The position numbers were made by a program, and so were the translations under genes. From positions 115,554 through 179,553 of the forward strand of contig CAVSRX010000007.1 in NCBI GenBank assembly GCA_963730445.1: a stretch of DNA of 64,000 bases, read 5' to 3'. Origin of the DNA: Vicinamibacterales bacterium. GTDB lineage: Bacteria; Acidobacteriota; Vicinamibacteria; Vicinamibacterales; JAMQPK01. Shown one piece after another: positions 3 through 38,017 of the stretch; the stretch's first letter is position 1; each line of letters starts with the position of its first letter. The notes under the pieces are model-generated. The model searched no databases, had not been told where the DNA came from, and saw nothing but the letters and a program-made list of their open reading frames with translations.

Positions 3-1874
3 TACGCGATGGAAGGCTGCGCCATCTACCGTGAAGACCAGCGCAAGTTCGTGTACTACGCGCGCAAGGGCAACGACTTCGACGAGTGCCAGATCGACAA
101 GAGCGGCAAGTGGCTGCTCATCAAGGAACAGCTCGACGGCGCGGCCGGCGAAGATAACCGCGTCATCGACATCGATCGCAATACCGAGCGCGTGCTGAAC
201 GATCCGGATGGTGCGGCAGGACACTCCGACCTGGGCTACGGCTATCTCGTGGCCGAAGACAACTTCAACAACCGTCCAGGCGCGGTGCGCGTGTGGGACT
301 TCAACAAAGATCTTCGCGGCGGACAGCCGAACTCTCCAGTGCAGGGACAGGGCACGCTCGTGTATCAGATAGCCGACTGGATGTCGCTTGCGCAGCACAT
401 CGCGCACGGCAACTCGAAGCCGGGGCTCCCGCTGGATCAGCAGGTTGCCTGCGCCAGCAACGGCACGGGCGCACACGCGCCGCGCACAAACGAGATCGTC
501 TGCTTCAGGCTGAACGGCTCGCTCGAAACGCTCGTCGTTGCGCCGACGCTGACCGATGTGAACGCGTCGGGCAACGGCGGCATGGACGGCGAAGCGTATT
601 GGAAGTTCCCGAAGGGCAACCTCGATATCACCGGCGAGTACTTCATCTGGACGACCAACGGCGGCACGAGCCGAAACGACGCGTTCATCGTGAAGGTGCC
701 GCTCAATCGCCTCGGCGCGAGCGGGTCCGGATCGCCGGAGCCCGACTCCGGTTCGACTGGTCCGGCTGCCCCGCCGCCGCCGGCACCGGCGCCAGCACCC
801 GCACCAGCGCCAGCACCCGCACCAGCGCCGTCGCCCGCTCCGGCGCCGACCTCAACGAGCGGCGGCACGTCGCCCGTGAGCTGGACGGACGTCGTGAATG
901 CCTCCACGGTCGGCAACAGCCTCATGAAGGCGGGCGGATGCGGTGGATGTCCCGACGCCGGCGCCATCTCGGCGCAGTCGATTTCGTCGGGCGACGGGTA
1001 CGTCGAGTTCACGGTTCCCGAGACGGGCACGCTGCGCTTCATCGGCCTGAGCTCGGGCAACAGCGGCACCGACCCGAGCGAGATCAAGTTCGCGCTGCGG
1101 CTGCAGGGTGGCAACGCGGAAGTGCGCGAGTCGGGCGCCTATCGCACCGAGACCCAGTTCTCGACCAGCGACGTGATGCGCATCGCATACGTTGGCGGCA
1201 CCGTGCAGTACTCGAAGAACGGCAACGTGTTCTACACGAGCGGCAACGGACCGGCCTATCCCGCCATCGTCGACACCACGCTGTTCGATGACAACGCGTC
1301 GGTATGGAACGTCATGATCAGTTCCGGTTCCGGTTCCGGTTCCAGTTCCGGTTCCGGTTCAGGTTCCGGTTCTGGCGGTTCTGGCTCGCCCGCACCGGCA
1401 CCACAGACCTCCGGTCCGGTCGGTGTGAGCTGGACGAGCGACTCGAACGTCGCCATCAACGGCAACAGCCTGGTCAAGACGGGCGGCTGCAGCGGCTGCG
1501 GTGACGCAGGTGCCGTCTCGGCTCAGCAGATCTCATCAGGTGATGGATACGTGGAGTTCTCGGGGGCGGGCGACGGGCTTCGCTTCATCGGGCTCAGCTC
1601 GGGCAACAACGGAACGGACGCGAGCGAAATCAGGCACGCGCTGCGCCTGCAGAGCAACACCGCCGAAGTGCGCGAGTCGGGCGGGTACCGCAGCGAGGTG
1701 GGCTTCTCCGGCGGCGATACGCTGCGCATCGCCATCGTCGGCGGCAACGTGGAGTATTCGAAGAACGGCAGCGTGTTTTATACCAGCGCGCTGCAGGCGT
1801 CGTATCCGATGCTGGTCGACACGTCGCTCTTCGACGGCAACGCGTCGATCAACAACGTCGTGATCTCTCAGTAG
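3..1874 (+). CDS. secreted multidomain protein, 5'-partial (beta-propeller-like region plus two tandem ~150-aa Cys-pair domains, possibly glycan-binding)
   Basis: The frame of ORF 9..1874 stays open to the window edge. The C-terminal half is an internal duplication. The block VSWT..GNSL.K.GGC.GC.DAGA.SAQ.ISSGDGYVEF..LRFIGLSSGN.GTD.SEI..ALRLQ..AEVRESG.YR occurs twice, after a (PA)n linker (~nt 770-850) and across an (SG)n linker (nt 1321-1386). No family name recognised. Confidence 0.55.
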   Translation, partial: YAMEGCAIYREDQRKFVYYARKGNDFDECQIDKSGKWLLIKEQLDGAAGEDNRVIDIDRNTERVLNDPDGAAGHSDLGYGYLVAEDNFNNRPGAVRVWDFNKDLRGGQPNSPVQGQGTLVYQIADWMSLAQHIAHGNSKPGLPLDQQVACASNGTGAHAPRTNEIVCFRLNGSLETLVVAPTLTDVNASGNGGMDGEAYWKFPKGNLDITGEYFIWTTNGGTSRNDAFIVKVPLNRLGASGSGSPEPDSGSTGPAAPPPPAPAPAPAPAPAPAPAPSPAPAPTSTSGGTSPVSWTDVVNASTVGNSLMKAGGCGGCPDAGAISAQSISSGDGYVEFTVPETGTLRFIGLSSGNSGTDPSEIKFALRLQGGNAEVRESGAYRTETQFSTSDVMRIAYVGGTVQYSKNGNVFYTSGNGPAYPAIVDTTLFDDNASVWNVMISSGSGSGSSSGSGSGSGSGGSGSPAPAPQTSGPVGVSWTSDSNVAINGNSLVKTGGCSGCGDAGAVSAQQISSGDGYVEFSGAGDGLRFIGLSSGNNGTDASEIRHALRLQSNTAEVRESGGYRSEVGFSGGDTLRIAIVGGNVEYSKNGSVFYTSALQASYPMLVDTSLFDGNASINNVVISQ

Positions 1875-1887
1875 GAATCAGTCGCGC

Positions 1888-3246
1888 TCACCACTGGGAT
1901 CGCACAGAGCACACGGAGGAGATGAACGCATCCGTGACCTCTGCCGTCTCTGTGGTCACCAAGACAGGCCGCGAGACAACGCGCGGTCCGGGTTCTCCTG
2001 GCATCCTTTCCCAGGTAACCCGCTGCCGGCGGGCCACGATACGTGAACATCCCACGATCGTGGCCCAGCCGAGCAGACACATCGTGTAAGGGACGCTGAA
2101 GACCGGCGTGCGCTTCGGCGCACGGATCACCTGGCGGCGGTCGCTGTTCATTCGCCGTCCCGTTTTGGTGCGCGCGATGCGACGCCGCTCGATTTGGGCG
2201 CGCCGGGTCCGCTCCGGGCGTCCCTGGATATACCCCGTCAGCGCCGCGGCATAGAACATCGACTGACCTGCCAGGAACACCCGAAAGAAGACGGCATCGA
2301 TCAGCGCCACGTTGGCGACGAGCACTGCGAATTGCAGCGCCGGTATGGCGAGACGAAGCGCTTTGTGCGACAGCACCTCGAACCACACGCGGCAGCGCAG
2401 CGGATTCAGCATCCACGGATGGCGCGCGAGCAGCTGAAAGGTTCCCGCGATCGTTCTCGCCTTCCTGATGAAATCCTCGCGCGGGTTCATGGCAATCAGG
2501 TCGTGCGCGCGCGCGTCGGCTTCGAAAACCACCCGATAGCCCTTGCGCACGATCTGCATCGGGATGAGCACGTCATCCAGGATGGTGTCCGCAGGGATCG
2601 GCTGGAAGAGGTGGCGGCGGATCGCGTAAATCGCACCGGTCGCGCCGACCGTTGAGCCGGACCAGCTTTCGTTCGCGCGGATGAATTTCTCGTACTGCCA
2701 GTAAAACCCGGCGCCTTCTCCGCCAGGCGACGTGCCACTTCGCTTTCGCAGGTGAAGCTCACCGCTGACAGCGCCGACCTCGGCGTCGGCGAAATTGGCG
2801 ACGAGCGCCCGAATAGCGGCAGGCTCGAACCGCTGACGGGCATCGGCAAGCACGACGATCTCACCCTCCGCCGATGCGATCAGATCGTTCAGCACGGAGG
2901 TCTTGCCGCGGCGCTGGCCGAACTCGCGCACCGTCACGCCCCGATCCTCGTACCGCAGAGCGACCTCGACCGTGTTGTCGGTCGATCCATCGCTGCCGAC
3001 GATGATGGCAAGGCGTTCGCGCGGGTAATCGGAGGCGAGCAGATTTTCGATACGGCGGCCGATACGGTGTCCCTCGTTGTGCGCCACCACCACCACCGTG
3101 ACGTGAGGCTCGATCGGCGCACGCGCGACGGGTCGCGGGCGCGCCTTGCGCCGCAGCCACGCGATGAGCGGATAGCCGAAATACACGTACACCAGCAGCG
3201 CGAGGGCGCACCAGAATACGAGCAGCGGCGCGCTCAGTTGCGCCAT
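1888..3246 (-). CDS. family 2 glycosyltransferase, membrane-bound
   Basis: ORF 1888..3615 trimmed to the ATG at 3246. It starts MAQLSAPLLVFWCALALLVYVYFGYPL (N-terminal TM), followed by VTVVVVAHNE, GSDGSTDNT and VLADARQ GT-A motifs and C-terminal TM helices. The upstream 369 nt of the long ORF overlap the beta-helix gene in another frame. The start overlaps the upstream stop by 13 nt. Confidence 0.8.
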   Translation of the reverse strand: MAQLSAPLLVFWCALALLVYVYFGYPLIAWLRRKARPRPVARAPIEPHVTVVVVAHNEGHRIGRRIENLLASDYPRERLAIIVGSDGSTDNTVEVALRYEDRGVTVREFGQRRGKTSVLNDLIASAEGEIVVLADARQRFEPAAIRALVANFADAEVGAVSGELHLRKRSGTSPGGEGAGFYWQYEKFIRANESWSGSTVGATGAIYAIRRHLFQPIPADTILDDVLIPMQIVRKGYRVVFEADARAHDLIAMNPREDFIRKARTIAGTFQLLARHPWMLNPLRCRVWFEVLSHKALRLAIPALQFAVLVANVALIDAVFFRVFLAGQSMFYAAALTGYIQGRPERTRRAQIERRRIARTKTGRRMNSDRRQVIRAPKRTPVFSVPYTMCLLGWATIVGCSRIVARRQRVTWERMPGEPGPRVVSRPVLVTTETAEVTDAFISSVCSVRSQW

Positions 3247-4890
3247 ACCGCCACCTCGCCCATCGCATCCGTCAACGCACGCACGTCGGCGCCGGCACGA
3301 CGCGCATCCCGCCCGTCGCGCGCAAAGACATTGTCGAGCGGATACTGGTCGGGCTTCCCGCCGGGAAACACGTTGCCTGTAATGACCGCGCCCGGAAAGT
3401 ACCGATCGATCGAGGCCCTGCCGACGCCTGTCCCCGATCCGACAAAGCCCGCGCCGTTGTCCGGCATCATGTTGTTCTGAAAGACGAAGCCCGTGTGCGG
3501 GTCGTGATCGCCCCCAAACACGACGCCGCCCGTTGTGCGTTCGGCGGTGTTGCTGGTAATCGCGACGCCGGCTGTTCCGTCGAGCAGTTGAAACAGGCGG
3601 CCGTTGCCGCCCCACTTCCCGCCGACGTCGGAGAGCAGGTTGTTGTGAATGGCGATGCGCCGCGTCTGTTTGCTTTCCTGGTTGTCGTCACGGCCGAGAA
3701 TGTTGAAGCCGGCTGCGACGTTGCGGAGAACGTTGTTGCGGAACGTCACGTCTTCGACGACCGACCACGGCGCGCGCCCATCCTGGTTGCGCGGCGTAAA
3801 CAGAATCGCAAAACCGTTCTGCGCGTGCGGCCAGTTGTGCTCGAGCAGGTTGCCCTCGACGAGCACGCGCCGCGCGTTCTTCAGCTCGAACAGGTTCTTC
3901 ACGGCCCACGGCGTGCCTTCGTAGGTCGGATGGTCCATCTTCCAGCGCAGCGGCTTGGCGAAGTGATTGCGGACGATCTCGATGTCGGACGGCACGAGGC
4001 CGTGCACGGCCGGATCGGCGCCGCCGAACATGACGTTTTCGCCGGCCGCCTCGAGATAGTTGTTCGCGATTTTGAAGGGCCCGGGCCCGTTCCATCCCGA
4101 AATCGCCTGCGAATCGGCGCCGACTTCCTTGAAGTCGGAAAAGTACGAATTGACCACTGCGATGTCGCGGCCGTTCAACGCGATGCCCCGGCGTCCGCCC
4201 TTGCGCGCGTCGCCATGAATGTAGGAGCGGTCGAACACGATGTGATGCGGAATCTCCGTCAGGTTCGCATCCTCACCGCCGAGCTCGATGAGATTGTAGA
4301 GAAATGCTCCAGCCGCGGGTGCGACCTCGACACCAGCAAAACGGTAATGATGCGCGCCGGGATCGGTGATGACGGCCGACCGTGACGCCGCGACGAGCTT
4401 CGCCATATGTCGGGCGTCCGAGGGACTGACGCGCTTGGCTGCCGGGAGCTCGCGCAGCCGGTTCGACGCGATGACGATCCACGCGTCGCCGTCTTTCTTC
4501 CGCAGCTTGAACGGTCCTTCGTAGGTCGCACCCGCCTCGAGCGTGATGCGATCGCCTGGCTGCGCGGCGTCGAGCGCCGACTGCAGCGACTCGCCCGCGG
4601 CGACGTGAAGGGTGCGGCCGTGGTCCGCCTTGCGTGTTCACTTTCGCGCGTAGTCAGACGGTCGCCATCGTCGATCGTCGAGCGGCATCGGATCGTAGAG
4701 TCGCTGTCGTCGATCGTCGATCGGCCATCGTCGATCGATCGTCGATCGCCTGACGATAGACGATGGACGCTGGACGATCGACGATCGGCGATCGACGATG
4801 GACGATGGCCGATGGACGATCGACGATCCGCGGTCCGAAGGCTGCCGCCGTACCCAGCAGCACTCCAAGGACCGCAGTAGCAGGCATCAT
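3234..4890 (-). pseudogene. secreted right-handed parallel beta-helix protein (pectate-lyase fold, putative glycanase), disrupted at the 5' end
   Basis: ORF 3234..4406 carries beta-helix turn motifs (IANNYLEAAGENVMFGG, VEGNLLEHNW, FRNNVLRNV, IHNNLLSDV, FQNNMM). The same frame continues upstream as clear coding sequence with no start codon (..RTLHVAAGESLQSALDAAQPGDRITLEAGATYEGPFKL..) until a TGA at 4638-4640. A signal peptide MMPATAVLGVLLGTAAAFGP starts at ATG 4890, overlapping the TAA of the upstream gene by 1 nt. It lies in another frame and is separated from the mature part by the 4661-4829 repeat. Confidence 0.6.
4661..4829. repeat. 7-nt-periodic imperfect palindrome (units ~CGTCGAT on the left, ~ACGATSG on the right), rich in CGATCG/GATC
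   Basis: Read directly. 4708-4750 (cgtcgatcgtcgatcggccatcgtcgatcgatcgtcgatcgcc) is ~90% reverse-complementary to 4787-4825 (ggcgatcgacgatggacgatggccgatggacgatcgacg). The intervening ~36 nt are built of the same heptads. There are about 12 GATC sites in ~170 nt. Several frames are open on both strands, as expected for a stop-free low-complexity repeat. Confidence 0.85.
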
Positions 4891-6212
4891 TACGCGACGC
4901 ACGTCCTGCTCTCGGCGCTCCGCGGCGCCATCTCGTGGACCGCGCCGCGCGTCAGATCGACGACGACCTGATCGGGCCGCGCGACCGCAAGCACCTTCAA
5001 GGCATCCTGCCCGGCCGTGCCGAACACGAGCACTTCCGCGTGCTCGGCCAGGCATTCCGGCGTGTCGCACAAGAGCGACGACACATGCGGGATCTCCTGC
5101 TCGATATAACTGCGATTGGCGCCCTTCAGCCGCGCCATCACCACATTCGGGTCGTAAATCTTCACGTCGCAGCCTTTGCCGATGAGCGTTTCGACGAGCG
5201 TCACCATCGGGCTCTCGCGCAAATCGTCGGTATTCGACTTGAACGCGAGACCGACGACGCCGACCTTCTTCTTGCGCGTCTGCAGAACGGCATCCACCCC
5301 GCGCGCAATCTGCGCCTTGTTGGACTGGACAACGGCCGTCAGCACAGGTGTCGAAACGTCGTAGATGCGTCCCGAGCAGAGCAGCGCGCGCACATCCTTC
5401 GGCAGGCACGACCCGCCGAACGCGAATCCTGGCTTCAGGTAGGCCGGCGCGATGTTGAGCTTCTTGTCCTGCCGAAACACGCGCATCACGTCCTGCGCGT
5501 CGGCGCCGAGCGCATCGCAGAGGTCGGCGATCTCGTTGGTGAACGTAATCTTCAGGGCGTGGAATGCATTGCACACGTACTTGACCATTTCTGCCGTGCG
5601 CACGGACGTCTGCAGGAACGGAGCGCTGATGCTCGCATACAGCTGACGCAGCGCCGTCGCCGTATCGGGATCGTCGCACCCCACCAGCACGAAGGGCGGC
5701 TGATCGAAGTCTTCGATCGACGAGCCTTCGCGCATGAACTCGGGATTGACGGCGATGCGCAGGGGCCCGGCCATGCGGCCGCCGTTGGAACATTCCGACA
5801 ACACGCGCGCGAGCACGCGCTCGGTCGTGCCAGGCAGCACGGTGCTGCGCAGCACCACAGTGAGCGGAGTCGTGCGCGACTCGCATGCCGCGCCGATGGC
5901 CGACGCGACGCGCGCGAGCCCGTCGTAGTCGGGCTGACCGTGGCCGAGGTCGGGTGTGCCCACACAGATGAGCGCGACATCCGCATCGGCAAGGCCCTCT
6001 TCAGCCGAGTCCGTGGCCGACAGCCGCCCCTGCCGCACGACGCGCGAGACGAGATCGGCGAGCCCCGGCTCGATAATCGGCGACGAGCCCGCGTTGATCA
6101 TCGCCACCTTCTCGGCGTTCACGTCGACGCCGATCACATGATGACCATCGCGCGCGAGGCAGGCGGCCGTGACACATCCGACATATCCGAGACCGAAGAC
6201 ACTGACGTTCAT
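4890..6212 (-). CDS. nucleotide-sugar 6-dehydrogenase (UDP-glucose/GDP-mannose dehydrogenase family, AlgD-like)
   Basis: ORF 4890..6833 trimmed to the ATG at 6212. It starts MNVSVFGLGYVGCVTAACLA (Rossmann GxGxxG) and contains NPEFMREG and GFAFGGSCLPKDVRAL catalytic-Cys motifs. There is an ATGA overlap with the upstream deacetylase stop (6209-6212). Confidence 0.9.
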   Translation of the reverse strand: MNVSVFGLGYVGCVTAACLARDGHHVIGVDVNAEKVAMINAGSSPIIEPGLADLVSRVVRQGRLSATDSAEEGLADADVALICVGTPDLGHGQPDYDGLARVASAIGAACESRTTPLTVVLRSTVLPGTTERVLARVLSECSNGGRMAGPLRIAVNPEFMREGSSIEDFDQPPFVLVGCDDPDTATALRQLYASISAPFLQTSVRTAEMVKYVCNAFHALKITFTNEIADLCDALGADAQDVMRVFRQDKKLNIAPAYLKPGFAFGGSCLPKDVRALLCSGRIYDVSTPVLTAVVQSNKAQIARGVDAVLQTRKKKVGVVGLAFKSNTDDLRESPMVTLVETLIGKGCDVKIYDPNVVMARLKGANRSYIEQEIPHVSSLLCDTPECLAEHAEVLVFGTAGQDALKVLAVARPDQVVVDLTRGAVHEMAPRSAESRTCVA

Positions 6213-6954
6213 CGCGCTCCTCCGTAAATCCAGTCCGCGACCCGCGGATAGGACGACCCAAGTAACGGCTTCACCAATCCCTTTGCGTTCCACGCCGCCC
6301 ATTCCTTCGAACGCGCCCACGGCGCGCCTTGCACCAGCCGGCGCGCGAGATCTGCGGGCGCTCCGCTGCGAATCACGAAGCGTCCGGCAATCGCGCACCC
6401 GTCGATCGCACGCGCCGATCGAACCGGCTCCGAGTTGAACAACAGGAAGAGTCCCGACTCCGCCGCTGCACGGCCAACCTCTTTCGAGAAATAACCGCCA
6501 GGCACCGAGCCCGTCGTCACGGCGTGCCCGAGCACGTCCTCGAGCCGCTGGCGGCTCTCGGTCCACTCGCGGCGCATGTCCGCGCGGCTCAGCGCGCTGA
6601 ACCGAGTGGGATGCGACGCCGAGTGAGTGCCGATGACATGGCCGCGGGCATCGAGCTCGCGCACCTGCGCTGCATCGAGAAAGCCGGGCCGTCCGATGAA
6701 ATCCGTGGTCACGAAGCAGTACGCGTGCAACCCACGCGCTTCCAGCTTGTCTGCCACGATCGTGTAAAACGACACGCCGCCATCGTCGAAACGTCAATCG
6801 CGCCGCACGCACATCCGGCGCACCCGATTGCACCGAGTTGCGTCTCGAACTCGCGCAACGACAGCTTGTAGCGATCGGCGGCCGGCGAATTGAAGCCGCT
6901 CTCGCCGACGTCGCTCACGTAGACGTCATGAAACAGCAGCGATACTGGTTGCAT
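6209..6954 (-). pseudogene. polysaccharide deacetylase (NodB-like), one frameshift in this assembly
   Basis: The N-terminal part is ORF 6709..6954 (MQPVSLLFHDVYVSD..YKLSLREFETQLGAI..). The C-terminal part is ORF 6209..6775 (..FDDGGVSFYTIVADKLEARGLHAYCFV..HSASHP..). The two join at ..AIDV|FDDGG.. if one base is added to the AAA run at 6788-6790. Confidence 0.75.
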
Positions 6955-6999: not shown

Positions 7000-7761
7000 T
7001 CAGCCGGGCTGGCCCCACACGGCCGACGTGCGGCCTGCAGTGGAAACCGGGTCCACTTTCTTTCCGTTGAACAAATCGATCAGCGTCGCCGCGATGCGGT
7101 CGAGATTTTCCGTGACGACGCGGTACTGAATGACGATGTGCGATTCGGCGAGCTCGTCGATGGGGCACCCGGCCTGCAGATACACCGGACCGGTGTCGAC
7201 CCCTTTGTCGATCTTGAGCAGCGTCATGCCGACGCGGTCGAGATCGCGGTTGACGAGCGCCCAGAAACACCCATGCGCGTTGCGATACTCGGGGCAGATG
7301 CCGGGATGCAGTGCGAACGCGCCCACGCGCGCGAGCGAAAAAATGTCCGGCTTCAGGATGAACTTGCAGCGCGCGATGACAATGTCAGGTTTAACGCTGT
7401 TCAGGAACTCGCGCGAGGCCTCGCTGTTCGGATTGGCGACAACGAGCCGCGGCACGCGATCGAGGTCCGCGGGATACTGCGCCTTGAGCGCCTCGATCTG
7501 CTCCGCCTTCCACGCATCTTCCCTGGCGCGCAGCCGCAGCCGCGCGAACACACGGTAGGCAACGACGTCGAGAAACCCGAACCAACCGACGCGTCGAAGC
7601 TCGCGCCGTGCAGCCGTCCACAGACGGCGTCCTTTGTCAGAAATGACGATGAGGCCGGCCAGGTTCATCGTGCCGGCGAGCCACGACGCGAGCCCCTCGG
7701 TGTCGAGGCGATCGCCTTCGTGGCATATCAGCACGACTGTCGGCCGGTTCGTCTTCATCAT
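7000..7761 (-). CDS. formyltransferase-family protein (sugar N-formyltransferase candidate)
   Basis: LHPGICPEYRNAHGCFWAL and LLKIDKGVDTGPV match formyl-transferase core motifs. The C-terminus probably continues to 6926 (..QPG|LTDYLRWKKAARSKK..) after a 1-nt indel in the G/C run at 7003-7008. Confidence 0.7.
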   Translation of the reverse strand: MMKTNRPTVVLICHEGDRLDTEGLASWLAGTMNLAGLIVISDKGRRLWTAARRELRRVGWFGFLDVVAYRVFARLRLRAREDAWKAEQIEALKAQYPADLDRVPRLVVANPNSEASREFLNSVKPDIVIARCKFILKPDIFSLARVGAFALHPGICPEYRNAHGCFWALVNRDLDRVGMTLLKIDKGVDTGPVYLQAGCPIDELAESHIVIQYRVVTENLDRIAATLIDLFNGKKVDPVSTAGRTSAVWGQPG

Positions 7762-8962
7762 GCGTTGGCACTACCCCTTCGCAGTGCGCTTCGAACTCGC
7801 GGGCCACTTGCGGCCAGGAGTAGCGCTCAACCACGAGCGCCCGCCCGGCCTGGCCGAGTTCGTTTCGTCGCCCTTCGTCGTGCAAGAGGTGGACCACCGC
7901 TGCAGCGAAATCCTCGGGGTTGTCAGCTGCGATGAATTCTTTCTGGTCACTCAATGCGAGCCCCTCGGCTCCCACTGTCGTGGACACGACAGGCTTGGCC
8001 ATGCCGAGGGCTTCGAAAATTTTCATGCGCGTTCCGCTGCCGGCTCGCAGCGGCACGACATAGACCGCGGCTTCATCCAGGTACGGCCGCACATCGTCGA
8101 CGGTGCCCGTGACGATCATGCCGAGCCGCTCCGCCGCGTCGCGCAATTTCTGAGTGGGATTCCGCCCGACAATCGCGAACGACGCGTCGGGCACCTGCTC
8201 GCGGATTTTCGGCAGAATCGACTCGCCGAAATAAATGACGGCGTCCTCGTTCGGATGCCAGTCCATCGATCCGCTGAAGACGAGCCGCGCGGGAATCTGC
8301 GGCCGGCCGGCTGGCGCGAAATACGCCGTGTCGACGCCCGTTGGTATCGCGCCGGTTTTTGCGGCCGGCGCCATCTCGGCAAGGCGCGCGCGATCTTCCT
8401 CCGATACCGCGATCGTCAGATCGGCGCGGCTGCAGAGCTCGGATTCTTTGTTGCGCAGCTTGCGCCACTCGATCTCGAACAGCAGCTTCTTGATCGGATT
8501 GCGCTCGAGCGCGCTGAGCCGCTTCCAGATCAGGTACTCGACGTTGTGCTCGAACAGCACGACGGGAACTGTGCCGCCGAGCGGCACGTTCGCGGCCGCG
8601 AACAGAAAGTCGGACACGACGACGTCGATCTGATCTTTCTCGACGAGCGCCTGTACCGTGTCGCGCACTTCGGCGACGCGCCACTTCCAGAGATCCACGG
8701 GATACGACGAGAACCACGATCGCGCCACGGTCAGCGGAAACGCCGACGAGCCGCGCTTCGGCACGTCGTACGGAATCGACACGACCTGCTGGCAGTCGGG
8801 CAGCTGCCGGGCGAGCCCCTCGGGATCGTCGCCGGCCCCGTGCGTCGTCACGAGCGTGACTCTATGATGCCGGGACAGCGCCGACACGATCTGCAGGCTT
8901 CGCACTCGCCCGCCAGTCGTTGACGGCCACAGCCCGCCCATCTTGACCCAGAGGATTCGCAT
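7637..8962 (-). CDS. GT4-family (GT-B) glycosyltransferase
   Basis: Begins MRILWVKMGGLWPSTTGGRVRSLQIVSAL.. and contains ..VPLRAGSGTRMKIFEALGMAKPVVST (E-x7-E region). The last ~45 codons overlap the next gene. A 1-nt change in the C4 run at 7774-7777 would give ..EFEAHCEG-stop just before ATG 7761. Confidence 0.8.
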   Translation of the reverse strand: MRILWVKMGGLWPSTTGGRVRSLQIVSALSRHHRVTLVTTHGAGDDPEGLARQLPDCQQVVSIPYDVPKRGSSAFPLTVARSWFSSYPVDLWKWRVAEVRDTVQALVEKDQIDVVVSDFLFAAANVPLGGTVPVVLFEHNVEYLIWKRLSALERNPIKKLLFEIEWRKLRNKESELCSRADLTIAVSEEDRARLAEMAPAAKTGAIPTGVDTAYFAPAGRPQIPARLVFSGSMDWHPNEDAVIYFGESILPKIREQVPDASFAIVGRNPTQKLRDAAERLGMIVTGTVDDVRPYLDEAAVYVVPLRAGSGTRMKIFEALGMAKPVVSTTVGAEGLALSDQKEFIAADNPEDFAAAVVHLLHDEGRRNELGQAGRALVVERYSWPQVAREFEAHCEGVVPTHDEDEPADSRADMPRRRSPRHRGARVVARRHDEPGRPHRHF

Positions 8963-10881
8963 TCATCACCTGCATGACCGTTGCGGGGTCTTCGCCCTCG
9001 CAGAACATGCGCTGCCAGATTTCGAGATTCACCAGCAGCCACAACCGATCGCCGTGCTTGCCGCGCCCCGACCGGTGTTCGTCGGCCATGCGCGCAAGCG
9101 ACGCGCGATCGAAGTACCCGCGGCTCGTCGCGCGCGGGCCGAGCACGAACTCCTGCACGACCGGCCAGAAATCGTCACGCAGCCAGCGGCCGACCGGCAC
9201 CGGAAATCCCATCTTCTTGCGCGTGAGAATCTCGGCCGGAATGATGTCGCGCACCGCTTCGCGGAAGATCGCCTTGGTCTGCCACATGCGCACCTTGAGA
9301 TCGCTCGGCAGCGCGGCGACGTGCTCGACGAGCTCGTCGTCGAGAAACGGCACGCGGCTCTCGATCGAGGCCGCCATGCTCATCTGGTCCTGCTTCATCA
9401 GCAGCTCGTGCAGATACGTCTGCAGATCCGTGCGGCTCATGCGATCGAGGATGTCTCCCTCGGCGTCCGCATAGCACTGCATCTGCACGGCGTAGGGATC
9501 GCGGCGGGCGAGCATCTCAGGGCGCGAGAGCAGCGTCCGCTGCACATCCGCGGTATGCACGGCAAAGTTTTCGAGGAACAGGCTGCGGATGCCAGGATCG
9601 AGCGCGAGGAACGTCCGCTCGCCCACGCGTCCAAGCCGCGACGGCAGCGCCTGCACCATGCGGCGCACCTGAGTGCGCAGCGCCGCCGGCATCGCGGCCC
9701 AATACGGCCGCCCCAGTCTGTCGTTCCACATCGTCACGCGATAGCGGTTGTAGCCGAGGAACAGCTCGTCGGCGCCCTCGCCGGTCAGCACGACCTTGAC
9801 GTGGTTGCGCGCCAGCTTGGCGACGAAGTAGAGCGGCACGCTCGACGGAAACGCAATCGGCTCGTCTTCGTGCCACACGAGATGCGGCAGCGCTTCGAAG
9901 AAGTCGGACGGCGTGACCGTGACATCGCGGTGCTCGCGCCAATCGCGCTTGGCCACGGTCCGCGCGTACGGGAGCTCGTTCGCCTCTGCCTCTGCGAACC
10001 CGACAGAGAACGATTGGATCGGGATCGCGCACCTGCGCGAGACATCATGGCCGCGAGCGCGCTCGAATCGAGTCCGCCTGAGAGGAACACGCCGAGCGGC
10101 ACGTCGCTCATCAGGTGGCTTTCGACCGACGCTTCGAGGCGCGCGCGAAGGTCTTTCGCCTGCGCCTCGAACGGAATGTCGCGCACATCGCTCGAAGGGG
10201 CGGGCAGCTGCCAGTAGCGGCGTGTGCGAATCCCCTTCTCCGCCGACCAGGTGAGCACGTGACCCGGCAGCAGCTTCCGCACGCCGTGGAAGAACGTGTC
10301 GGCTCCCGACACGAAGCGCGTCGAGAGATACTCGGGCAGCACTTCTTCGTTGAAGGTCGCCCGAACGCAGCCCGAGGCGAAGAGCGACTTGATTTCCGAC
10401 CCGAACACGAGCTCGCTGCCCGTGCTGGCGTAGTAGAGCGGCTTGATGCCCAGCCGATCGCGCGCGAGCAGCAGCTCCTGCTTCTTCTTGTCCCAGATCG
10501 CGAAGGCGAACATCCCGTGCAGCTTCTCCACGCACGCGTCGCCGTCCTCTTCGTACAGATGGATGATCGTTTCGGTGTCGCACCGCGATGCGATAGCGGT
10601 GCCCCTTCGCCTCGAGGCCCGGCCGCAGTCGAGGCGTGGTTGTAGATCTCGCCGTTGAAGGCGATCCACACGCTGCCGTCCTCGTTGGTCATCGGCTGCT
10701 CGCCGGCCGAGCTGACGTCGACGATGGCGAGCCGCCGGTGCGCGAGGCCGACGGCACCGTCGATGAACAGACCGGCGCCGTCGGGACCGCGATGGCTCAA
10801 CACATCGCGCATCCGGCGGAGACGATCCACGTCGACGGGCTGACGCGGGTCGAAATGAGCGATGCCAGCAAAGCCACACAT
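8862..10881 (-). pseudogene. asnB: asparagine synthetase B-type glutamine amidotransferase (exosortase-locus type), at least 3 frameshifts
   Basis: MCGFAGIAH..NGEIYNH lies in the frame of ORF 10111..10881. [43 protein letters not shown] lies in the frame of ORF 9785..10879. IQSFSVGFAE..VLTGEGADELFLGY..DLQTYLHELLMKQDQMSMAASIESRVPFLD lies in the frame of ORF 8862..10583. Two shifts fall within ~60 nt at 10585-10640. The 3' end overlaps the next gene by ~100 nt, so the true stop is uncertain. Confidence 0.8.
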
Positions 10882-10887
10882 AGATTT

Positions 10888-10923
10888 ATCTACTGATCTA
10901 GAGATCTACTGATCTCGAGATCT
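10888..10923. repeat. AT-rich 16-nt direct repeat (ATCTACTGATCTNGAG x2 plus a partial copy), with two AGATCT sites
   Basis: atctactgatct at 10888-10899 recurs at 10904-10915. This is the only AT-rich patch in this part of the operon. It spans the heparinase-like stop (10906-10908) and the 24-nt spacer before the asnB ATG (10881). No SD-like motif precedes that ATG. Confidence 0.6.
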
Positions 10924-11333
10924 AAAGATGTCCGAGTCGTCGACGAAGACCGATTCGCGTCGATCCTCGAGCTCGATGCCAATCGGCAGATCGTGGTCGT
11001 CGAACAGCGCCGAGACGGCCGGCGCAGACGACCAATCGCCGCGCTGCGGCATCAACAGCGTGATGCTGCGCCACGGCAGCGGCGCTTTGGCCGCGTACAC
11101 CAGAGCGGCGCCGGTGTCCGCTGGCCGTAGTCGGCTCGACACCCAGCCGCGAATCGGCGCCAGCTCTCCGAGCTTCACGTGAGGCCTCATCGCAGCCGGT
11201 CGCGAACGACCCGATCCAGAACGTATTGCCGGCCGGCGTCTGCGCCCGCGCCCATCGATCGCGCACCGAGGGACACAGACATCGGCGCGAACTGAAATCC
11301 GAGATCGATTTGATGAAGGGCGATGTTCGTAGT

Positions 11334-13160: not shown

Positions 13161-14281
13161 TCATTGAACCGGCACCTCAGAACTTGAACCGGAACCGCAG
13201 AACCCGGAACCTGAACTCGGAACCGGCATAAACCGCGCTCCATTGGTCTCTGACTGCCCGCCACGTGTATTTGCCGAGCTCCGCGATGCGCCTGCTCCGC
13301 CATCTGCAGCGCGCGCTCGGGCCGGTTGAGCGGCGTCGGCGATCGCGCGCGCCATCGCGACCGGCGCTTCAGGCGGAACGATGACGCCGGTCTCGCCGTG
13401 GCGCACCATCGACGGGATGTCTCCCGTCGGCGTCGAGATGACCGGCAGACCCGAGGCGAACGCCTCGAGAATCGAGACCGGCTGGTTGTCGACGACCGAC
13501 GCGTTCAGGAAGATGTCCGAATCGGCGTAGAGCTTCGGCATCCACTCCGGGCGCCACCTTGCCGACGAACCGCACGCCGCCTGTCGTCAATTGCGCGGCC
13601 ATCGCGCGCAGCCGCGGCTCTTCGCTGCCGTAGCCGGCGATCGTCAGCGTCGCAGTCGGGACAGGTCTTCTGGAAGCGCGCGAACGCCTCGATGATGACG
13701 TCGACCCGGTAGTACGTCTCGAGGTTGCGCGTCGACAGCAGCCGCGGGCGCAGCGGCGGCGCTCGCGATAGTCGAACACGCGTCAGATCGACGACGTTCG
13801 GAATCACGCGCGCGCGATAGCCGTAACTTCGCGAACACGTCGCGCAGGTACTCCGACGGCACGACGATCTCGTCCGCCAGCCTCAGCCACGGGATGCACG
13901 AGCGCGCCCCAGTGCGCGAGATGATCGTCGGCCTCGCCGCTGTGGTAGTGCAGCACGACGCGCTTGTTGAACAGCCGCGCGGCCAGCATCGCCGGCACCG
14001 GCGCGAGCAGGAACGACGAGTACGACGCGGAGAACACGTGCACGACGTCGAGCGCGCGCGAGCCGCGACAGGCCGGGAACATACAGCGGCTGGTTCAGCG
14101 AGCGTGCGCAGCGTACGGCAGCCGCCGCATCCAGCGCAGGCCGCGCGGAAACCGCGGATTGATCGGGAACGAGCGCCGCATCGACTCCGTCGTCGCGCAG
14201 CGAGTCGCACGAGCGTCTGCGCCTGCACTCCCTGGCCGCCCGAGGATGTCGAGGCTCGCGGCGACAATCGGCGACACGCAT
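13161..14281 (-). pseudogene. GT4-family glycosyltransferase, multiple frameshifts
   Basis: Blocks lie in different frames. Examples: SPIVAASLDILG (ORF 14095..14277); GGQGVQAQTLVRL and PWLRLADEIVVPSEYLRDVFAK (frame of ORF 13644..14897); DVVHVFSASYSSFLLAPVPAMLAARLFNKRVVLHYHSGEADDHL (ORF 13804..14082); NLETYYRVDVIIEAFARFQK (ORF 13505..13807); LYADSDIFLNASVVDNQPVSILEAFASGLPVISTPTGDIPSMV (ORF 13161..13541). The start is ATG 14281 or GTG 14277. Confidence 0.65.
13166..13226. repeat. degenerate GAACCGG short tandem array
   Basis: gaaccgg..gaactt gaaccg gaaccg ca gaacccg gaacct gaactcg gaaccgg. It encodes the odd C-terminal tail ..PVPSSGSGFCGSGSSSEVPVQ of the GT4 gene. The 14-mer gaactcggaaccgg (13213-13226) recurs inverted at 16190-16203, beside hairpin copy 2. 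Confidence 0.7.
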
Positions 14282-16175
14282 CACGCGAGCCGCCTTCGGG
14301 CTTTCGAGGGGGACGTCGAGGAACCGGCGGCACCACAGCTCGAACGACAGAATCGTCCACAGGTGCAGATCGAGATCGCGGCCGCGCTGGTGCAGCCGCA
14401 GCAGCCGCTCGACGTAGCCGACGTCGAAGAATCCGCGCTGGCGGCAGGTGTCCGACAGCAGGATGTCGCGCGCGAATCCGAGCAGCTCGCCGCGGAACCA
14501 GCGCGCCAGCGGCACGGCGAAGCCCTGCTTCGCGCCGGTCGATGATGTCGTCGGGCAGCACGCCGCGCATCGCCTGCTTGAACAGGTATTTCGTGGTGTC
14601 CGTCGCGCAGCCGCAGGTTCGACGGAATCTGTCGCGGCGAACTCGACAAGGCGGTGATCGAGCAGCGGCGGCCGCGCCTCGATCGAGTGCGCCATGGTCA
14701 TGCGATCGACCTTGGTCAGGATGTCGAGCGGCAGATACGTCTGGAGATCGCAGTACTGCGCGGCCGACATCCAGTCGCGATCGCTCTGCGAGATACGACA
14801 GCCGATCGACCCACGGATCGAACCGCGACGATGTGCTCGAAGGCGCTCGTCTGGAACAGCTGCTCCATTTCGTCGGCGCGGAACAGCGTCGACGCATCGA
14901 GATAGCGCTGCGGGCCGTCGAGCGCGAGATGGCGCAGGAAGCGGCGGCCCCGCATGCCTTCCGGCATCGCGTCGCCGATCGCGCCCGCCATTCCCCGCAG
15001 CGCGGCCGGCACGCGGTCGTACTCGCGCTCGCGGCGCTCGACGACGTACTTGTCGTAGCCGGCGAAGAGCTCGTCGCCGCCGTCGCCGGTGAGCACGACC
15101 TTGACGTGCTCGGCCGCCAGCTTCGACACCATGTAGGTCGGAATCGCCGACGTGTCGCCGAACGGCTCGTCGAGATACCACGCGAGGTCCTCGACGATGC
15201 GACACGACGTCGGGCTTCAGCACGAGCTCGTGGTGCTCGGTGTCGAACGCCTTGGCCACTTTGCGCGCGTGCACCAGCTCGTCGAACCCGTCTTCGGCGA
15301 ACCCGATCGAGAACGTCTTGATCTGCGGCCCGGCTGCCTCGCCGCCATCGTCGCGACGACGGCGCTCGAATCGATGCCGCCGCTCAGGAACGCGCCGACC
15401 GGCACGTCGCTGATCTCGTGGAGCGGCGACGGACTCGGCGAGCAGCTCGCGCAGCTGCTCGACCAGCTCGCCTTCGGTTGACATCTCGTCGGGCTCGAAC
15501 TCGACGTCCCAGTAGCGCTCGATCCGCAGCGACGAGCCGCGCTCGGCCACCGCGAGGCGCGCCGGCTCGAGCTTCTTCACGCCGTCGACGATGCTCTGCG
15601 ACGGCCGGCGTCGCCAGGAACGTGAACAGATGGCTGACGCGCCTGCCAGTTGACGGTGCGATCGACCTCGGGCAGCGCGCAGGATCGGCTTCAGCTCGGA
15701 GGCGAACGCCAGCCGCCGTCGCGTCTCCGCGTAGTAGAGCGGCTTGATGCCCAGGCGATCGCGGGCCAGCAGCAGCCGCTTGTGCCGCGATGTCCCAGAT
15801 CGCGAACGCGAACATGCCGCGCAGCTGGTCGACGCACCGCGCGCCGTAGTCCTCGTAGAGGTGGACGATCGTTTCGGTGTCGCTGTCGGTGCGGAACGTG
15901 TGGCCGCGCGCGCTCGAGCTGCGCCGCAGCTCGCGGTAGTTGTAGATCTCGCCGTTGAACACGACCCAGACCGAGCCGTCCTCGTTGAGGACCGGCTGCT
16001 GGCCGCCCTCGAGGTCGATGATGCTGAGCCGGCGCATGCCGAGCCCGACGCCGCCGCCGACGTAGATGCCCTCGTCGTCGGGTCCGCGGTGCACCATCAT
16101 GCCGCACATCGAGCGGATCTCGTGCTCGAAGACGGGTTGACCGTCCCAGCGGATGATTCCGGCGATGCCGCACAT
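14281..16175 (-). pseudogene. asnB: second asparagine synthetase B-type amidotransferase, at least 8 frame switches
   Basis: [35 protein letters not shown] is in ORF 15384..16175. [15 protein letters not shown] and KTFSIGFAEDGFDE are in the frame of ORF 13883..15580. [16 protein letters not shown] is in ORF 15217..15405. KVVLTGDGGDELFAGY is in ORF 14716..15132. DLQTYLPLDILTKVDRMTMAHSIEARPP is in the frame of 13883..15580. TKYLFKQAMRGVLPDDII is in the frame of 13644..14897. The exact 3' end is uncertain. Confidence 0.75.
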
Positions 16176-37599: not shown

Positions 37600-38017
37600 A
37601 TGGCTGACACGCTCGGTCCGTCCAAGGTGGTCTTTGCCTGCGTCGCGAATGCGGGGCGATCGCAGATGGCGGCTGCGCTTTTTCAACACGCTCGCCAAAC
37701 CGGCGCGCGCCCGCGCGATCTCCGCGGGCACCCGTCCAGGGACCGCGGTTCACCCCGAAGTGGTGACGGCAATGCGCGAGCTGAACATCGACATCTCCTC
37801 TGCCACGCCGCAGTACCTCTCGACCGACCTCGTGAAGGATGCGCACATCCTGATTACGATGGGATGCGGCGACGAGTGCCCGCTCATCCCCGGCGTCGAG
37901 CGCGACGACTGGCCGCTCGACGATCCGAAAGGACAGCCGGTAGAAACGGTGCGGCGGATACGGGACGAGATCAAGATGAGAGTGGCGGAGTTGGTGAAGG
38001 AGAGGAAGTGGGGGTAA
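37600..38017 (+). pseudogene. arsC: arsenate reductase, LMW-PTPase type, one frameshift
   Basis: MADTLGPSKVVFACVANAGRSQMAAALF (CX5R P-loop, ORF 37600..) continues as NTLAKPARARAISAGTRPG..ITMGCGDECP..DPKG (ORF 37634..38017). Removing one T from the T5 run at 37679-37683 restores one frame. Confidence 0.8.

What the first reader, a model, noticed from the sequence alone, without database searches (positions are those of the whole stretch)
4638..4890. 7-nt-periodic palindromic repeat wedged between the signal peptide and mature domain of the beta-helix gene
The signal peptide MMPATAVLGVLLGTAAAFGP starts at an ATG coupled to the upstream TAA. It is followed by ~170 nt of heptad units (CGTCGAT-type, then the complementary ACGATSG-type). 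4708-4750 is ~90% reverse-complementary to 4787-4825, a potential ~40-bp hairpin or cruciform. The segment holds about 12 GATC/CGATCG sites. The conserved mature part begins only after a TGA at 4638-4640, in a different frame from the signal peptide, whose own frame stops at 4654-4656. Because 7 is not a multiple of 3, gain or loss of one unit changes the frame. Heptanucleotide tracts in 5' coding regions are a classic slipped-strand phase-variation device. With the present stops, unit changes alone would not rejoin the two parts. The alternatives are a MITE-like insertion that killed the gene, or a mis-assembled repeat.
Basis: partly seen in the sequence, partly recalled or inferred. Interest (0 to 1): 0.6.

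Follow-up and report, generated by a model that had tools for sequence, protein, structure and literature searches.

The report
Translated heptad-repeat linker, not a switch
The 7-base palindromic repeat is real, but relatives translate the same repeat in frame as a flexible spacer between the export signal and the enzyme body. The break in this copy of the gene lies just after the repeat and looks like one of many small insertion errors in this part of the assembly.

Summary
**Observation:** confirmed. About 170 nt (4664-4835, gene on the minus strand) consist of CSATCGT units, then their complement. They hold 12 GATC and 10 CGATCG sites and fold into a strong hairpin.

**Interpretation:** mostly not supported.
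- Fifteen or more orthologues (76-97% identical) carry the same kind of array in frame. It reads as a 7-residue-periodic spacer (SSIVDRP / STIDDRR) between signal peptide and beta-helix domain.
- Two near-identical alleles differ by exactly 21 nt, which is 3 units.
- In the window the array stays in the signal-peptide frame down to the conserved A-T-V codons.
- The break (TGA 4654-4656, net +1 nt before 4619) lies in the next ~40 nt. This patch carries 13 extra bases in scattered small insertions.
- Similar frame breaks hit the neighbouring deacetylase, AsnB and the genes at 12-17 kb, while the domain shows dN/dS 0.07. A consensus or assembly error is therefore the likeliest cause. Regional decay is the alternative.

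**Family:** the array belongs to a dispersed heptanucleotide repeat family with several loci per genome in Vicinamibacterales and Chloroflexota MAGs. Copies lie before start codons and in frame inside genes such as PheT. The closest known relatives are cyanobacterial STRR-type heptamer repeats. It is a new member of a known kind and of moderate interest.

The parts
4831..4890 (-). Signal peptide or N-terminal hydrophobic segment MMPATAVLGVLLGTAAAFGP. Its ATG (4890-4888) overlaps the TAA (4892-4890) of the upstream UDP-glucose/GDP-mannose dehydrogenase-type gene.
   Evidence: Orthologues have the same N-terminus. The signal-peptide function is inferred from hydrophobicity only.
4753..4829 (-). 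Forward arm: 11 heptads of CSATCGT type on the coding strand (GGATCGT CGATCGT CCATCGG CCATCGT CCATCGT CGATCGC CGATCGT CGATCGT CCAGCGT CCATCGT CTATCGT). In the signal frame it is translated as RIVDRPSAIVHRRSPIVDRPASIVYR.
4707..4752 (-). Turn (CAGGCGA) and reverse arm of ACGATSG-type heptads, translated as QAIDDRSTMADRRST. It pairs with the forward arm to form the long hairpin.
   Evidence: (I6, I17).
4683..4706 (-). Irregular spacer (..CAGCGACTCTACGATCCGATGCCG..). It aligns with the REP-like hairpin GCAGGACTCTACGTCCTGCC that sits at this place in the close relative L145.
   Evidence: (alignment to L145).
4664..4682 (-). Short second run of reverse-type heptads (CGACGAT CGACGAT GG).
   Evidence: (21-nt period row).
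4657..4665 (-). GCG ACC GTC (A-T-V), still in the signal-peptide frame. It is homologous to the K-A-T-V of the conserved LPKATVDTREP motif, which shows that the whole repeat region preserves the reading frame.
   Evidence: (GGCGACCGT shared with L145, L146 and L002).
4620..4656 (-). Broken tail. It has TGA 4656-4654 in the signal frame. Seven scattered small insertions add 13 nt relative to close relatives, which leaves a net +1 frame offset before GGC CGC ACC (G-R-T). The TGA at 4640-4638 is only an out-of-frame stop of the mature frame.
3234..4619 (-). Mature domain (GRTLHVAAG... to stop), 461 codons, uninterrupted. It is a right-handed beta-helix family with a weak profile match to PL6 alginate lyases. 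Against the 97% orthologue it has no indels and dN/dS 0.07.
   Evidence: PF13229 is precomputed for several orthologues. The window protein itself has no Pfam hit.

Best explanation
**What the region is.** Region 4664-4835 is an in-frame heptanucleotide simple-sequence array, (CSATCGT)n followed by its complement (ACGATSG)n. It belongs to a dispersed repeat family found in Vicinamibacterales and other soil bacteria.

**Why it can be translated.** The unit has no stop codon in any of the six frames. Three units make 21 nt, or 7 codons. The array is therefore translated as a 7-residue-periodic, low-complexity spacer (SSIVDRP-type, then STIDDRR-type). This spacer lies between the signal peptide and the catalytic beta-helix domain of a secreted polysaccharide-lyase-like enzyme in an exopolysaccharide gene cluster.

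**How it evolves (inferred).** It grows, shrinks and acquires inverted arms by replication slippage and hairpin-mediated template switching. Functional alleles keep only changes that are multiples of 3 nt.

**The hairpin.** It is a by-product of the two orientations. A specific function for it is not shown.

**The gene interruption.** The repeat does not cause it. The interruption lies in the ~40 nt after the array. It is most likely a consensus or assembly error in a strain-variable stretch of a long-read-type metagenome assembly, because the same cluster of genes carries many similar small insertions.
For: **Orthologues translate the same array in frame.**
- P0001 reads ..AAAFGPRIVVRPSSVVDRPSSIVHRPSSIVQSPALPTTTVDTREPASAGRTLHV.
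- P0011, P0009, P0013 and P0017 carry both arms.
- DNA of L001, L002, L121 and L122 confirms this.
- The short protein calls P0004 and P0005 are mis-called starts, not breaks.

**Alleles within about 97% identity vary in length but keep the frame.**
- P0001, P0122 and P0121 are 526, 532 and 539 aa. P0121 and P0122 differ by PSTIVHR, which is 21 nt or 3 units.
- P0146 is 15 aa longer than P0013 in the linker.

**The window's array is in frame** with the start codon down to A-T-V of the conserved KATVDTREP motif.

**The family is dispersed.**
My own estimate of the chance expectation is below 0.1 hits.
- Several loci come from the same MAG, for example MFD05454.bin.2.147 and MFD00962.bin.2.7.
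- By taxon, 30 loci are Acidobacteriota and 66 are Chloroflexota.

**Genomic contexts of other copies.**
- Some lie immediately 5' of start codons.
- Some lie in frame inside PheT, a PSD/PSCyt protein (again between signal peptide and first domain), an Hsp70-like protein and others.
- In the fetched loci, period-7 arrays far outnumber periods 5, 6, 8 and 9.

**The break is one of many in this region.**
- The mature domain has no indels against L001 and dN/dS 0.07.
- The tail carries +13 nt in 7 small insertions.
- The deacetylase is split by +8 nt in a 9-nt-repeat patch plus a TT to TTT change.
- AsnB is split over 3 frames by four 1-nt insertions, at 86-90% amino-acid identity.
- The AsnB paralogue is split over at least 4 frames.
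- The GC3 phase plot shows about 11 phase changes in 13.3-17.1 kb and gene-sized spacing elsewhere.
- Two sister assemblies, L145 and L146, are also riddled with frameshifts in this locus but have a normal tail.
Against: - No reads are available, so a real null allele cannot be excluded.
- The frame breaks are confined to about 4.6-17 kb of the window. Long ORFs elsewhere are intact. Real decay of a dispensable gene cluster would also produce this pattern.
- Only one array occurs in this 64-kb window. Dispersal is therefore shown for related genomes, not for this genome.
- Strong hairpins recur at this position in 5 of 6 linkers examined, including a non-heptad one, L120 at z -6.9. This leaves room for a selected structure.
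- The slippage and template-switch mechanism is inferred, not shown.
- The signal-peptide role is inferred from hydrophobicity only.
Confidence: 0.7

Rival explanations
1. The break is real. The gene is a recent null allele, or the whole exopolysaccharide cluster (about 4.6-17 kb) is decaying in this strain. Lesions appear first at its mutable repeat patches.
For: - The stop and the frame offset are present in the deposited sequence. The 390-aa truncated product P0124 is on record from NCBI and ENA.
- Frame breaks are regional rather than window-wide.
- Repeats are natural mutation hotspots.
Against: - dN/dS is 0.07 and there are no indels across 1386 nt of the mature domain.
- The broken genes keep 86-93% amino-acid identity to orthologues.
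- Nearly all unpaired lesions are small insertions at non-homopolymer sites. From my own knowledge, natural bacterial decay is deletion-biased.
- Lesions come in tight clusters beside strain-variable patches.
- Sister assemblies with 'contig_N' record names, which is how long-read assemblers name contigs, show the same kind of damage at other positions.
Confidence: 0.2
2. The heptad tract is a slipped-strand phase-variation switch. Gain or loss of one 7-nt unit turns the secreted enzyme on or off.
For: - The unit length is not a multiple of 3.
- The tract lies in the 5' coding region.
- Tract length is highly polymorphic among close relatives.
Against: - The array is in frame in the window.
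- Every intact allele seen differs by multiples of 3 nt.
- The units are imperfect, at 79% matches with a longest perfect run of 16 nt. This disfavours high-rate slippage.
- The present stops cannot be bypassed by unit changes.
- The same arrays sit in frame in essential genes such as PheT.
- Protein databases are biased towards intact calls, so OFF alleles could be under-sampled.
Confidence: 0.04
3. A MITE-like mobile palindrome inserted between the signal peptide and the mature domain and inactivated the gene.
For: - The architecture is palindromic.
- The window has about 100 nt more than the 97% orthologue L001.
- Copies are dispersed in related genomes.
Against: - There are no terminal inverted repeats distinct from the units, no target-site duplication and no conserved flanks or fixed length.
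- Arrays occupy the same site in orthologues down to about 76% identity.
- Arrays also occupy orthologous sites in different species, as in L008 and L119.
- The array does not break the frame.
Confidence: 0.03
4. The hairpin itself is the selected feature. It would be a structure in the mRNA or DNA just after the signal-peptide codons that tunes expression inside a translationally coupled operon, for example as a decay barrier, a translational pause or an attenuator. Any available palindromic repeat could supply it.
For: - Significant hairpins occur in the window (z -4.4), L002 (-5.7), L122 (-5.2), L121 (-2.9) and the non-heptad linker of L120 (-6.9).
- Many other orthologues carry REP-like palindromes here, for example VGRVLLDPP...QSKTRPT, which I read by eye as reverse complements of each other.
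- The upstream stop overlaps the start codon, and the flanking genes in the syntenic loci also overlap. There is therefore no intergenic room for such an element.
Against: - L001 has no significant hairpin (z -1.2).
- Many orthologues have plain linkers.
- Dispersed palindromic repeats would give hairpins wherever they are tolerated.
- There is no terminator or known RNA family.
- No covariation test is possible on repeat DNA.
Confidence: 0.1

Closest known systems
Dispersed heptanucleotide repeats of bacteria: STRR sequences of Calothrix/Nostoc, TAACTGA repeats of Beggiatoaceae, cyanobacteria and Bacteroidetes (PMC4679880), and GGGNATC repeats of Xanthomonas and Nostoc (PMC4692102). This includes the general excess of heptamer SSRs in large high-GC genomes that both papers cite.
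   Same: - Tandem 7-nt units of one motif.
- Many dispersed loci per genome, with variable copy number.
- Often directly upstream of start codons.
- A patchy multi-phylum distribution.
- Heptads dominate over other periods.
   Different: - The motif is different (CSATCGT, rich in GATC and CGATCG).
- Inverted paired arrays forming long hairpins are common: 7 of 33 in Acidobacteriota.
- The unit is stop-free in all six frames and is often translated inside genes. TAACTGA has stops in forward orientation, and GGGNATC is under-represented in ORFs.
- My three literature searches on heptanucleotide repeats found no paper tying them to Acidobacteriota or Chloroflexota.
Rickettsia palindromic elements (RPEs), reviewed in PMC10969869
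   Same: Palindromic repeats that sit in frame inside unrelated protein-coding genes and add a peptide segment without destroying the protein. Here the hosts are the beta-helix linker, PheT, a PSCyt protein and an Hsp70-like protein.
   Different: - RPEs are discrete elements of about 100-150 bp in sequence families, each with one conserved peptide.
- Here the element is a variable-length array of 7-nt units with no fixed ends.
- The two lineages are unrelated.
SSR contingency loci (for example the heptanucleotide tract controlling HMW1A in Haemophilus influenzae, PMC8262952)
   Same: A 7-nt unit that is length-polymorphic and lies close to the 5' end of a gene for a surface or secreted protein.
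   Different: - Contingency tracts are near-perfect repeats whose unit number toggles expression.
- Here the units are degenerate and the array is in frame.
- Observed variation keeps the frame.
- Essential genes carry the same arrays.
REP/REPIN-type extragenic palindromes (PMC3116915)
   Same: Short dispersed hairpin-forming repeats. Other orthologues carry REP-like hairpins at the very same linker (L120).
   Different: REPs are single imperfect palindromes of 20-40 nt tied to RAYT transposases and lie outside genes. No heptad periodicity is known for them, and no RAYT link was tested here.

Membership tests
Dispersed heptanucleotide SSR family (STRR-like) | Tandem array of one 7-nt motif | tested here: met
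   TRF finds period 7 with 17.3 copies.
Dispersed heptanucleotide SSR family (STRR-like) | Many separate loci of the same motif per genome | tested here: inconclusive
   Met in related genomes: several loci per MAG among 117 loci. Only one copy lies in the 64 kb available for this genome. That fits my rough estimate of about one array per 50-75 kb, made from the extra arrays in the fetched loci.
Dispersed heptanucleotide SSR family (STRR-like) | Copy number varies between strains at a given locus | tested here: met
   Window, L001, P0121, P0122, L145 and L146 all have different linkers with mature domains about 95-97% identical.
Dispersed heptanucleotide SSR family (STRR-like) | Heptads over-represented relative to other unit lengths | tested here: met
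   There are 34 and 149 period-7 arrays against 0-5 for each of periods 5, 6, 8 and 9 in the fetched loci. This includes non-ascertained motifs. The sample is ascertained on one heptad, so the excess is partly built in.
Phase-variable contingency locus | Near-perfect repeat tract | tested here: not met
   Matches are 79% and the longest perfect run is 16 nt.
Phase-variable contingency locus | Unit-number changes switch the reading frame on and off | tested here: not met
   The array is in frame. Alleles differ by multiples of 3 nt. The stops at 4654-4656 and 4638-4640 block rejoining.
Phase-variable contingency locus | Within-population heterogeneity in 7-nt steps | not testable with these tools
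   No reads are available.
MITE | Terminal inverted repeats, target-site duplication and a defined length | tested here: not met
   Flanks of 30 or more arrays share nothing, and lengths run from 28 to over 170 nt.
Rickettsia-type in-frame palindromic element | In-frame insertion in unrelated genes | tested here: met
   PheT, PSD/PSCyt, Hsp70-like and the L114 protein.
Rickettsia-type in-frame palindromic element | Discrete conserved element of about 100-150 bp | tested here: not met
   The arrays are variable-length runs of 7-nt units.
Right-handed beta-helix polysaccharide lyase (host gene) | Sequence or profile match to a beta-helix family | tested here: inconclusive
   The window protein has no Pfam hit. 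PF13229 is precomputed for some orthologues. The family profile weakly matches PL6 alginate lyases: 6kfn at 1e-5 and 7dmk at 0.028, over the N-terminal cap only. No structure was predicted.
Known RNA family or intrinsic terminator | Rfam gathering score, or a stem followed by a U-run | tested here: not met
   Only sub-threshold hairpin look-alikes appear. There is no minus-strand terminator.

The most novel reading that the evidence does not exclude
(CSATCGT)n arrays may be an actively propagated family rather than passive slippage products. In this reading they are a coding-compatible satellite, free of stops in all six frames, shared across soil phyla (Acidobacteriota, Chloroflexota, Bacteroidota and others). 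They would seed hairpins, new peptide segments and even start codons. The last GACGATG unit supplies the ATG of ispE, of an MFS gene and of a secreted-protein gene. The hairpin at the junction between signal peptide and mature domain of this exopolysaccharide enzyme would be selected as a regulatory structure.
Probability: 0.1. Interest if true: 0.7.

Novelty: new member of a known kind. Interest (0 to 1): 0.35.

Why it matters
**For annotation.**
- A repeat that looks like a frameshift switch or an insertion scar is here an ordinary, translated and fast-evolving linker.
- The apparent pseudogene is probably a consensus error.
- Long-read metagenome assemblies of strain-variable loci should be checked for clustered small insertions before anyone calls pseudogenes or phase variation.

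**For biology.**
- It extends the poorly understood class of dispersed heptanucleotide repeats, known mainly from cyanobacteria, Beggiatoaceae and Xanthomonas, to abundant uncultured soil lineages.
- It shows a motif whose six stop-free frames let it persist inside genes, including an essential tRNA synthetase subunit. There it creates 7-residue-periodic peptides and hypervariable spacers.
- It offers a tractable case for asking how such repeats are seeded at many loci.

Tried and rejected
- **Independent copy of the window's broken tail.** A metagenome pattern scan found nothing. A protein-guided scan found only relatives at or below 80% identity. An exact look-up of the window's 390-aa product found no contig on record. 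A protein search with a conceptually repaired N-terminus found no allele with the same tail.
- **Template for the tail.** I looked for a copy elsewhere in the window that could have templated it by a quasi-palindrome or template-switch event. There is none.
- **First screen for frameshifts.** A screen for start-less coding extensions of open stretches flagged only the beta-helix gene and wrongly suggested a clean assembly. tblastn against orthologues and a GC3 phase plot then showed many breaks at 4.6-17 kb.
- **Apparent second and third broken alleles.** P0004 and P0005 are mis-called starts. P0131 is cut by a contig end. P0123 and P0125 come from assemblies with many frameshifts.
- **Rfam and terminator scans.** Nothing meaningful.
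- **REP-like hairpin of L120.** It is absent from the window and from the other fetched loci.
- **Consensus-structure or covariation analysis of the hairpin.** Not attempted, because repeat DNA cannot be aligned unambiguously.
Full report
**1. What is in the sequence**

The genes here run on the minus strand. A UDP-glucose/GDP-mannose dehydrogenase-type gene ends with TAA at 4892-4890. An ATG at 4890-4888 overlaps that stop and opens MMPATAVLGVLLGTAAAFGP.

From 4829 downwards the coding strand reads as follows:
- eleven heptads of the type CSATCGT (to 4753);
- a short turn;
- about six heptads of the complementary type ACGATSG (to about 4707);
- an irregular 24-nt spacer;
- two or three more reverse-type units (4682-4664).

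The statistics support this reading:
- TRF reports period 7 with 17.3 copies, plus a related 21-nt period.
- 13 of the 14 window matches to a two-unit probe fall here, against 0.5 expected.
- There are 12 GATC and 10 CGATCG sites, against 1.9 and 0.5 expected.
- The arms pair over 31 nt at 94% and 16 nt at 94%, in different registers.
- The region folds far better than shuffles. DNA gives -66 kcal/mol (z -3.5). RNA gives -107 kcal/mol (z -3.7). The core gives z -4.4.
- The signal frame stops at TGA 4656-4654. The conserved domain frame opens after TGA 4640-4638 and has no start codon before ATG 4406.

**2. Orthologues carry the same array, translated**

The mature domain has thousands of homologues. 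The closest are 76-97% identical, and full-length ones run 518-548 aa, about 55-80 aa longer at the N-terminus than the domain itself.

- P0001: ..AAAFGPRIVVRPSSVVDRPSSIVHRPSSIVQSPALPTTTVDTREPASAGRTLHV
- P0013: ..GPQIVDRPSSIVYRQSIDDRRSTIDDRRPELPRAKVDTSEAPTTGRT
- P0009, P0011, P0017, P0121, P0122 and P0146 are similar.

DNA of four such loci confirms heptads in one or both orientations inside an open frame. The unit explains this. (CGATCGT)3 reads RSSIVDR and its complement reads TIDDRRS. Neither these nor the CCATCGT variant gives a stop in any of the six frames, and three units make seven codons (and direct reading).

Two short protein calls that looked like further broken alleles (P0004, P0005) are mis-called starts on intact frames.

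**3. The linker is hypervariable, but in frame**

Every sequence with a mature domain about 95-97% identical to the window has a different linker:
- L001/P0001 has the forward arm only.
- P0122 and P0121 have both arms and differ by exactly seven residues, which is 21 nt or three units.
- L145 and L146 differ again.
- The window has the longest linker of this set.

More distant orthologues have other hairpin-forming, REP-like inserts at the same place. Examples are L120 (GAGCTCGACTAAAGTCGAGCTC and GCAGGACTTTAGTCCTGC) and the peptides VGRVLLDPP...QSKTRPT, which I read by eye as reverse complements of each other. Others have plain linkers.

Five of the six linkers folded give significant hairpins, including the non-heptad one. 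L001 does not.

**4. Where the window is actually broken**

The signal frame runs through the whole repeat region to ATG GCG ACC GTC. This is homologous to AAG GCG ACC GTT (K-A-T-V) of the conserved LPKATVDTREP motif in L145, L146 and L002. So the array does not disturb the frame.

The next ~40 nt (4656-4620) align to the relatives' GAT ACG CGC GAG CCC GCA AGC GCC only with seven scattered small insertions totalling 13 nt. These create the TGA and leave a net +1 offset before GGC CGC ACC. Beyond that point the 1386-nt domain has no indel against L001, is 96% identical, and shows dN/dS 0.07.

**5. The break is one of many in this part of the window**

Comparison with the syntenic loci L001 and L002 shows the following:
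- The polysaccharide deacetylase is split by +8 nt inside a variable 9-nt (GGTGCNACG) repeat patch, plus a TT to TTT change next to the conserved TFDDG motif.
- AsnB is split over three frames by four 1-nt insertions, at 86-90% amino-acid identity.
- An AsnB paralogue at 14.2-16.2 kb is split over at least four frames.
- A GC3 phase plot shows about eleven phase changes in 13.3-17.1 kb, but gene-sized spacing from 17 to 64 kb.
- My earlier, cruder screen missed this.

The truncated 390-aa product of the window (P0124) is on record from NCBI and ENA on a 283-kb contig. Two sister assemblies whose records are named 'contig_N', as long-read assemblers name contigs, are also full of frameshifts in this locus, yet they have a normal tail.

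Four things point to consensus error in a strain-variable region of a long-read-type metagenome assembly:
- strong purifying selection on the domain;
- lesions that are nearly all insertions;
- tight clustering of lesions beside variable patches;
- the same syndrome in neighbouring genes.

I put this at roughly 0.75. Real regional decay, at about 0.2, cannot be excluded without reads.

**6. The array belongs to a dispersed family**

By taxon:

| Group | Loci |
|---|---|
| Chloroflexota | 66 |
| Acidobacteriota (mostly Vicinamibacterales MAGs) | 30 |
| Saprospiraceae, Lentisphaeria, Armatimonadota, Planctomycetota, Prevotellaceae, Gemmatimonadales, one Pedobacter, one Streptomyces and others | the rest |

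Several loci often come from one genome. In the Acidobacteriota loci there are 33 arrays. The median core length is 42 nt and the maximum is 112 nt. Seven have both orientations. The flanks share nothing: no terminal repeats and no target duplications.

Contexts fall into two groups.

*Just upstream of start codons.* The neighbouring genes were identified by eye from their N-terminal sequences.
- Examples are enolase, an EttA-like gene and several membrane-protein genes.
- In several cases the last GACGATG unit supplies the ATG itself. These are ispE in L088, an MFS gene in L092, and the orthologous secreted-protein genes in L119 and L008.

*In frame inside genes.*
- PheT, between the N-terminal segment and the B3_4 domain (L041).
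- A PSD/PSCyt protein, again between signal peptide and first domain (L080).
- An Hsp70-like protein (L081).
- A loop of the L114 protein.
- A C-terminal tail (L036).

L008 and L119 carry arrays at orthologous sites in different species, and the beta-helix linker array spans orthologues down to about 76% identity. Arrays therefore persist and turn over in place.

Period-7 arrays, including other motifs, far outnumber periods 5, 6, 8 and 9 in the fetched DNA.

**7. Comparison with what is known**

Dispersed heptanucleotide repeats are documented but poorly understood:
- three tandem heptanucleotides in Calothrix (STRR);
- TAACTGA repeats directly upstream of start codons in Beggiatoaceae, cyanobacteria and a few Bacteroidetes;
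- GGGNATC repeats in Xanthomonas and Nostoc;
- a general excess of heptamer SSRs in large high-GC genomes.

These come from PMC4679880 and PMC4692102. The present family fits that class. It differs in four ways: its motif, its frequent inverted pairing, its six stop-free frames and its frequent translation.

In that last respect it resembles the in-frame Rickettsia palindromic elements (PMC10969869). It fails their definition as discrete elements of about 150 bp. It also fails the defining tests of a contingency locus and of a MITE (see the membership table). My three literature searches on heptanucleotide repeats found no paper linking them to Acidobacteriota or Chloroflexota.

**8. Mechanism and confidence**

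| Status | Claim |
|---|---|
| Shown | The array is periodic and palindromic. |
| Shown | It is in frame here and in orthologues. |
| Shown | It is length-polymorphic in frame-preserving steps. |
| Shown | Related genomes carry many copies, both before and inside genes. |
| Shown | The window's break lies after the array, among many regional frame breaks. |
| Inferred | Growth and shrinkage by slippage, and arm inversion by hairpin template switching. |
| Inferred | Tolerance because the junction between signal peptide and domain is unconstrained. |
| Inferred | The break is an assembly artefact. |
| Open | How the same heptad is seeded at many loci and in several phyla. |
| Open | Whether the recurrent hairpin at this junction has a function. 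|

**9. Verdict**

It is a new member of a known kind of repeat, of moderate interest. It also carries a practical warning about pseudogene calls in this assembly.

Noticed in passing
window 6790-6830 (minus strand, polysaccharide deacetylase gene): A 9-nt coding repeat (GGTGCNACG, read as G-A-T/G-A-S) varies in copy number among relatives (L001, L145, L146). In the window it carries +8 nt, plus a TT to TTT change beside the conserved TFDDG motif. This splits the gene into ORFs 6709-6954 and 6209-6775.
   Followed up: partly
window ~8865-10881 and ~14261-16175 (minus strand): The asparagine synthase (AsnB-type) gene is split over three frames by four 1-nt insertions (about 10629, 10590, 10036 and 10020). 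A paralogue is split over at least four frames. The GC3 phase plot shows about 11 phase changes in 13.3-17.1 kb and normal spacing elsewhere in the window.
   Followed up: partly
window 38017-38118: A purine-rich tandem array (consensus AGAGTCGGG, period 9 with 28- and 37-nt super-periods, about 11 copies) fills the intergenic gap. It lies between a TAA at 38015-38017 and the ATG at 38127 of the next plus-strand gene, and it is full of GGAG/GAGAG Shine-Dalgarno-like motifs.
   Followed up: no
window 1321-1372; 772-848; 10888-10924: Further short tandem repeats: GTTCCG x8.7 (91% matches); an 18-nt unit x4.3 (CGCCGGCACCCGCACCAG); and a 16-nt unit x2.3 (ATCTACTGATCTAGAG).
   Followed up: no
L088 1474-1501; L092 2964-2998; L119 7482-7546; L008 892-968: In several Vicinamibacterales genes the ATG start codon is the ATG of the last GACGATG unit of an upstream heptad array. 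The genes are ispE, an MFS transporter gene, and orthologous secreted or membrane-protein genes in two species.
   Followed up: partly
L041 951-1010: A PheT (phenylalanyl-tRNA synthetase beta) gene carries a 20-residue heptad-derived insert (VTIDDGRSTMDDGRSTIDDA). From my own knowledge, this is exactly where the tRNA-binding B2 domain sits in other bacteria. Pfam finds B3_4, B5, the core domain and FDX-ACB but no tRNA_bind domain.
   Followed up: partly
L120 1845-1985; protein linkers of P0002, P0003, P0007, P0034, P0041, P0043 and P0044: Other orthologues carry unrelated REP-like palindromes at the same linker. These are translated as RLKSSxT, GLDFSRA, VAQDFSPA or VGRVLLDPP...QSKTRPT. The L120 linker folds at z -6.9. 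The junction acts as a general landing or nursery site for hairpin repeats.
   Followed up: partly
L021 (MAG MFD03066.bin.2.29), enolase gene downstream of the array at 7543-7584; L145 and L146 whole loci: Several public MAG or metagenome assemblies of this lineage show frameshifted essential or conserved genes. Examples are enolase running out of frame after ..AVDLRDGGDA.. (judged by eye from the expected enolase sequence), and split deacetylase, dehydrogenase and GT2 genes. This indicates error-prone consensus sequences.
   Followed up: no
L003-L119 (non-Acidobacteriota loci, about 615 kb): Chloroflexia MAGs carry very dense heptad arrays, up to 4-5 per 8 kb as in L026 and L044. Besides ACGATGG there are many other heptad motifs (ACGATAG, AATTACG, ACTGAGG, AAAGTCC and others).
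   Followed up: partly
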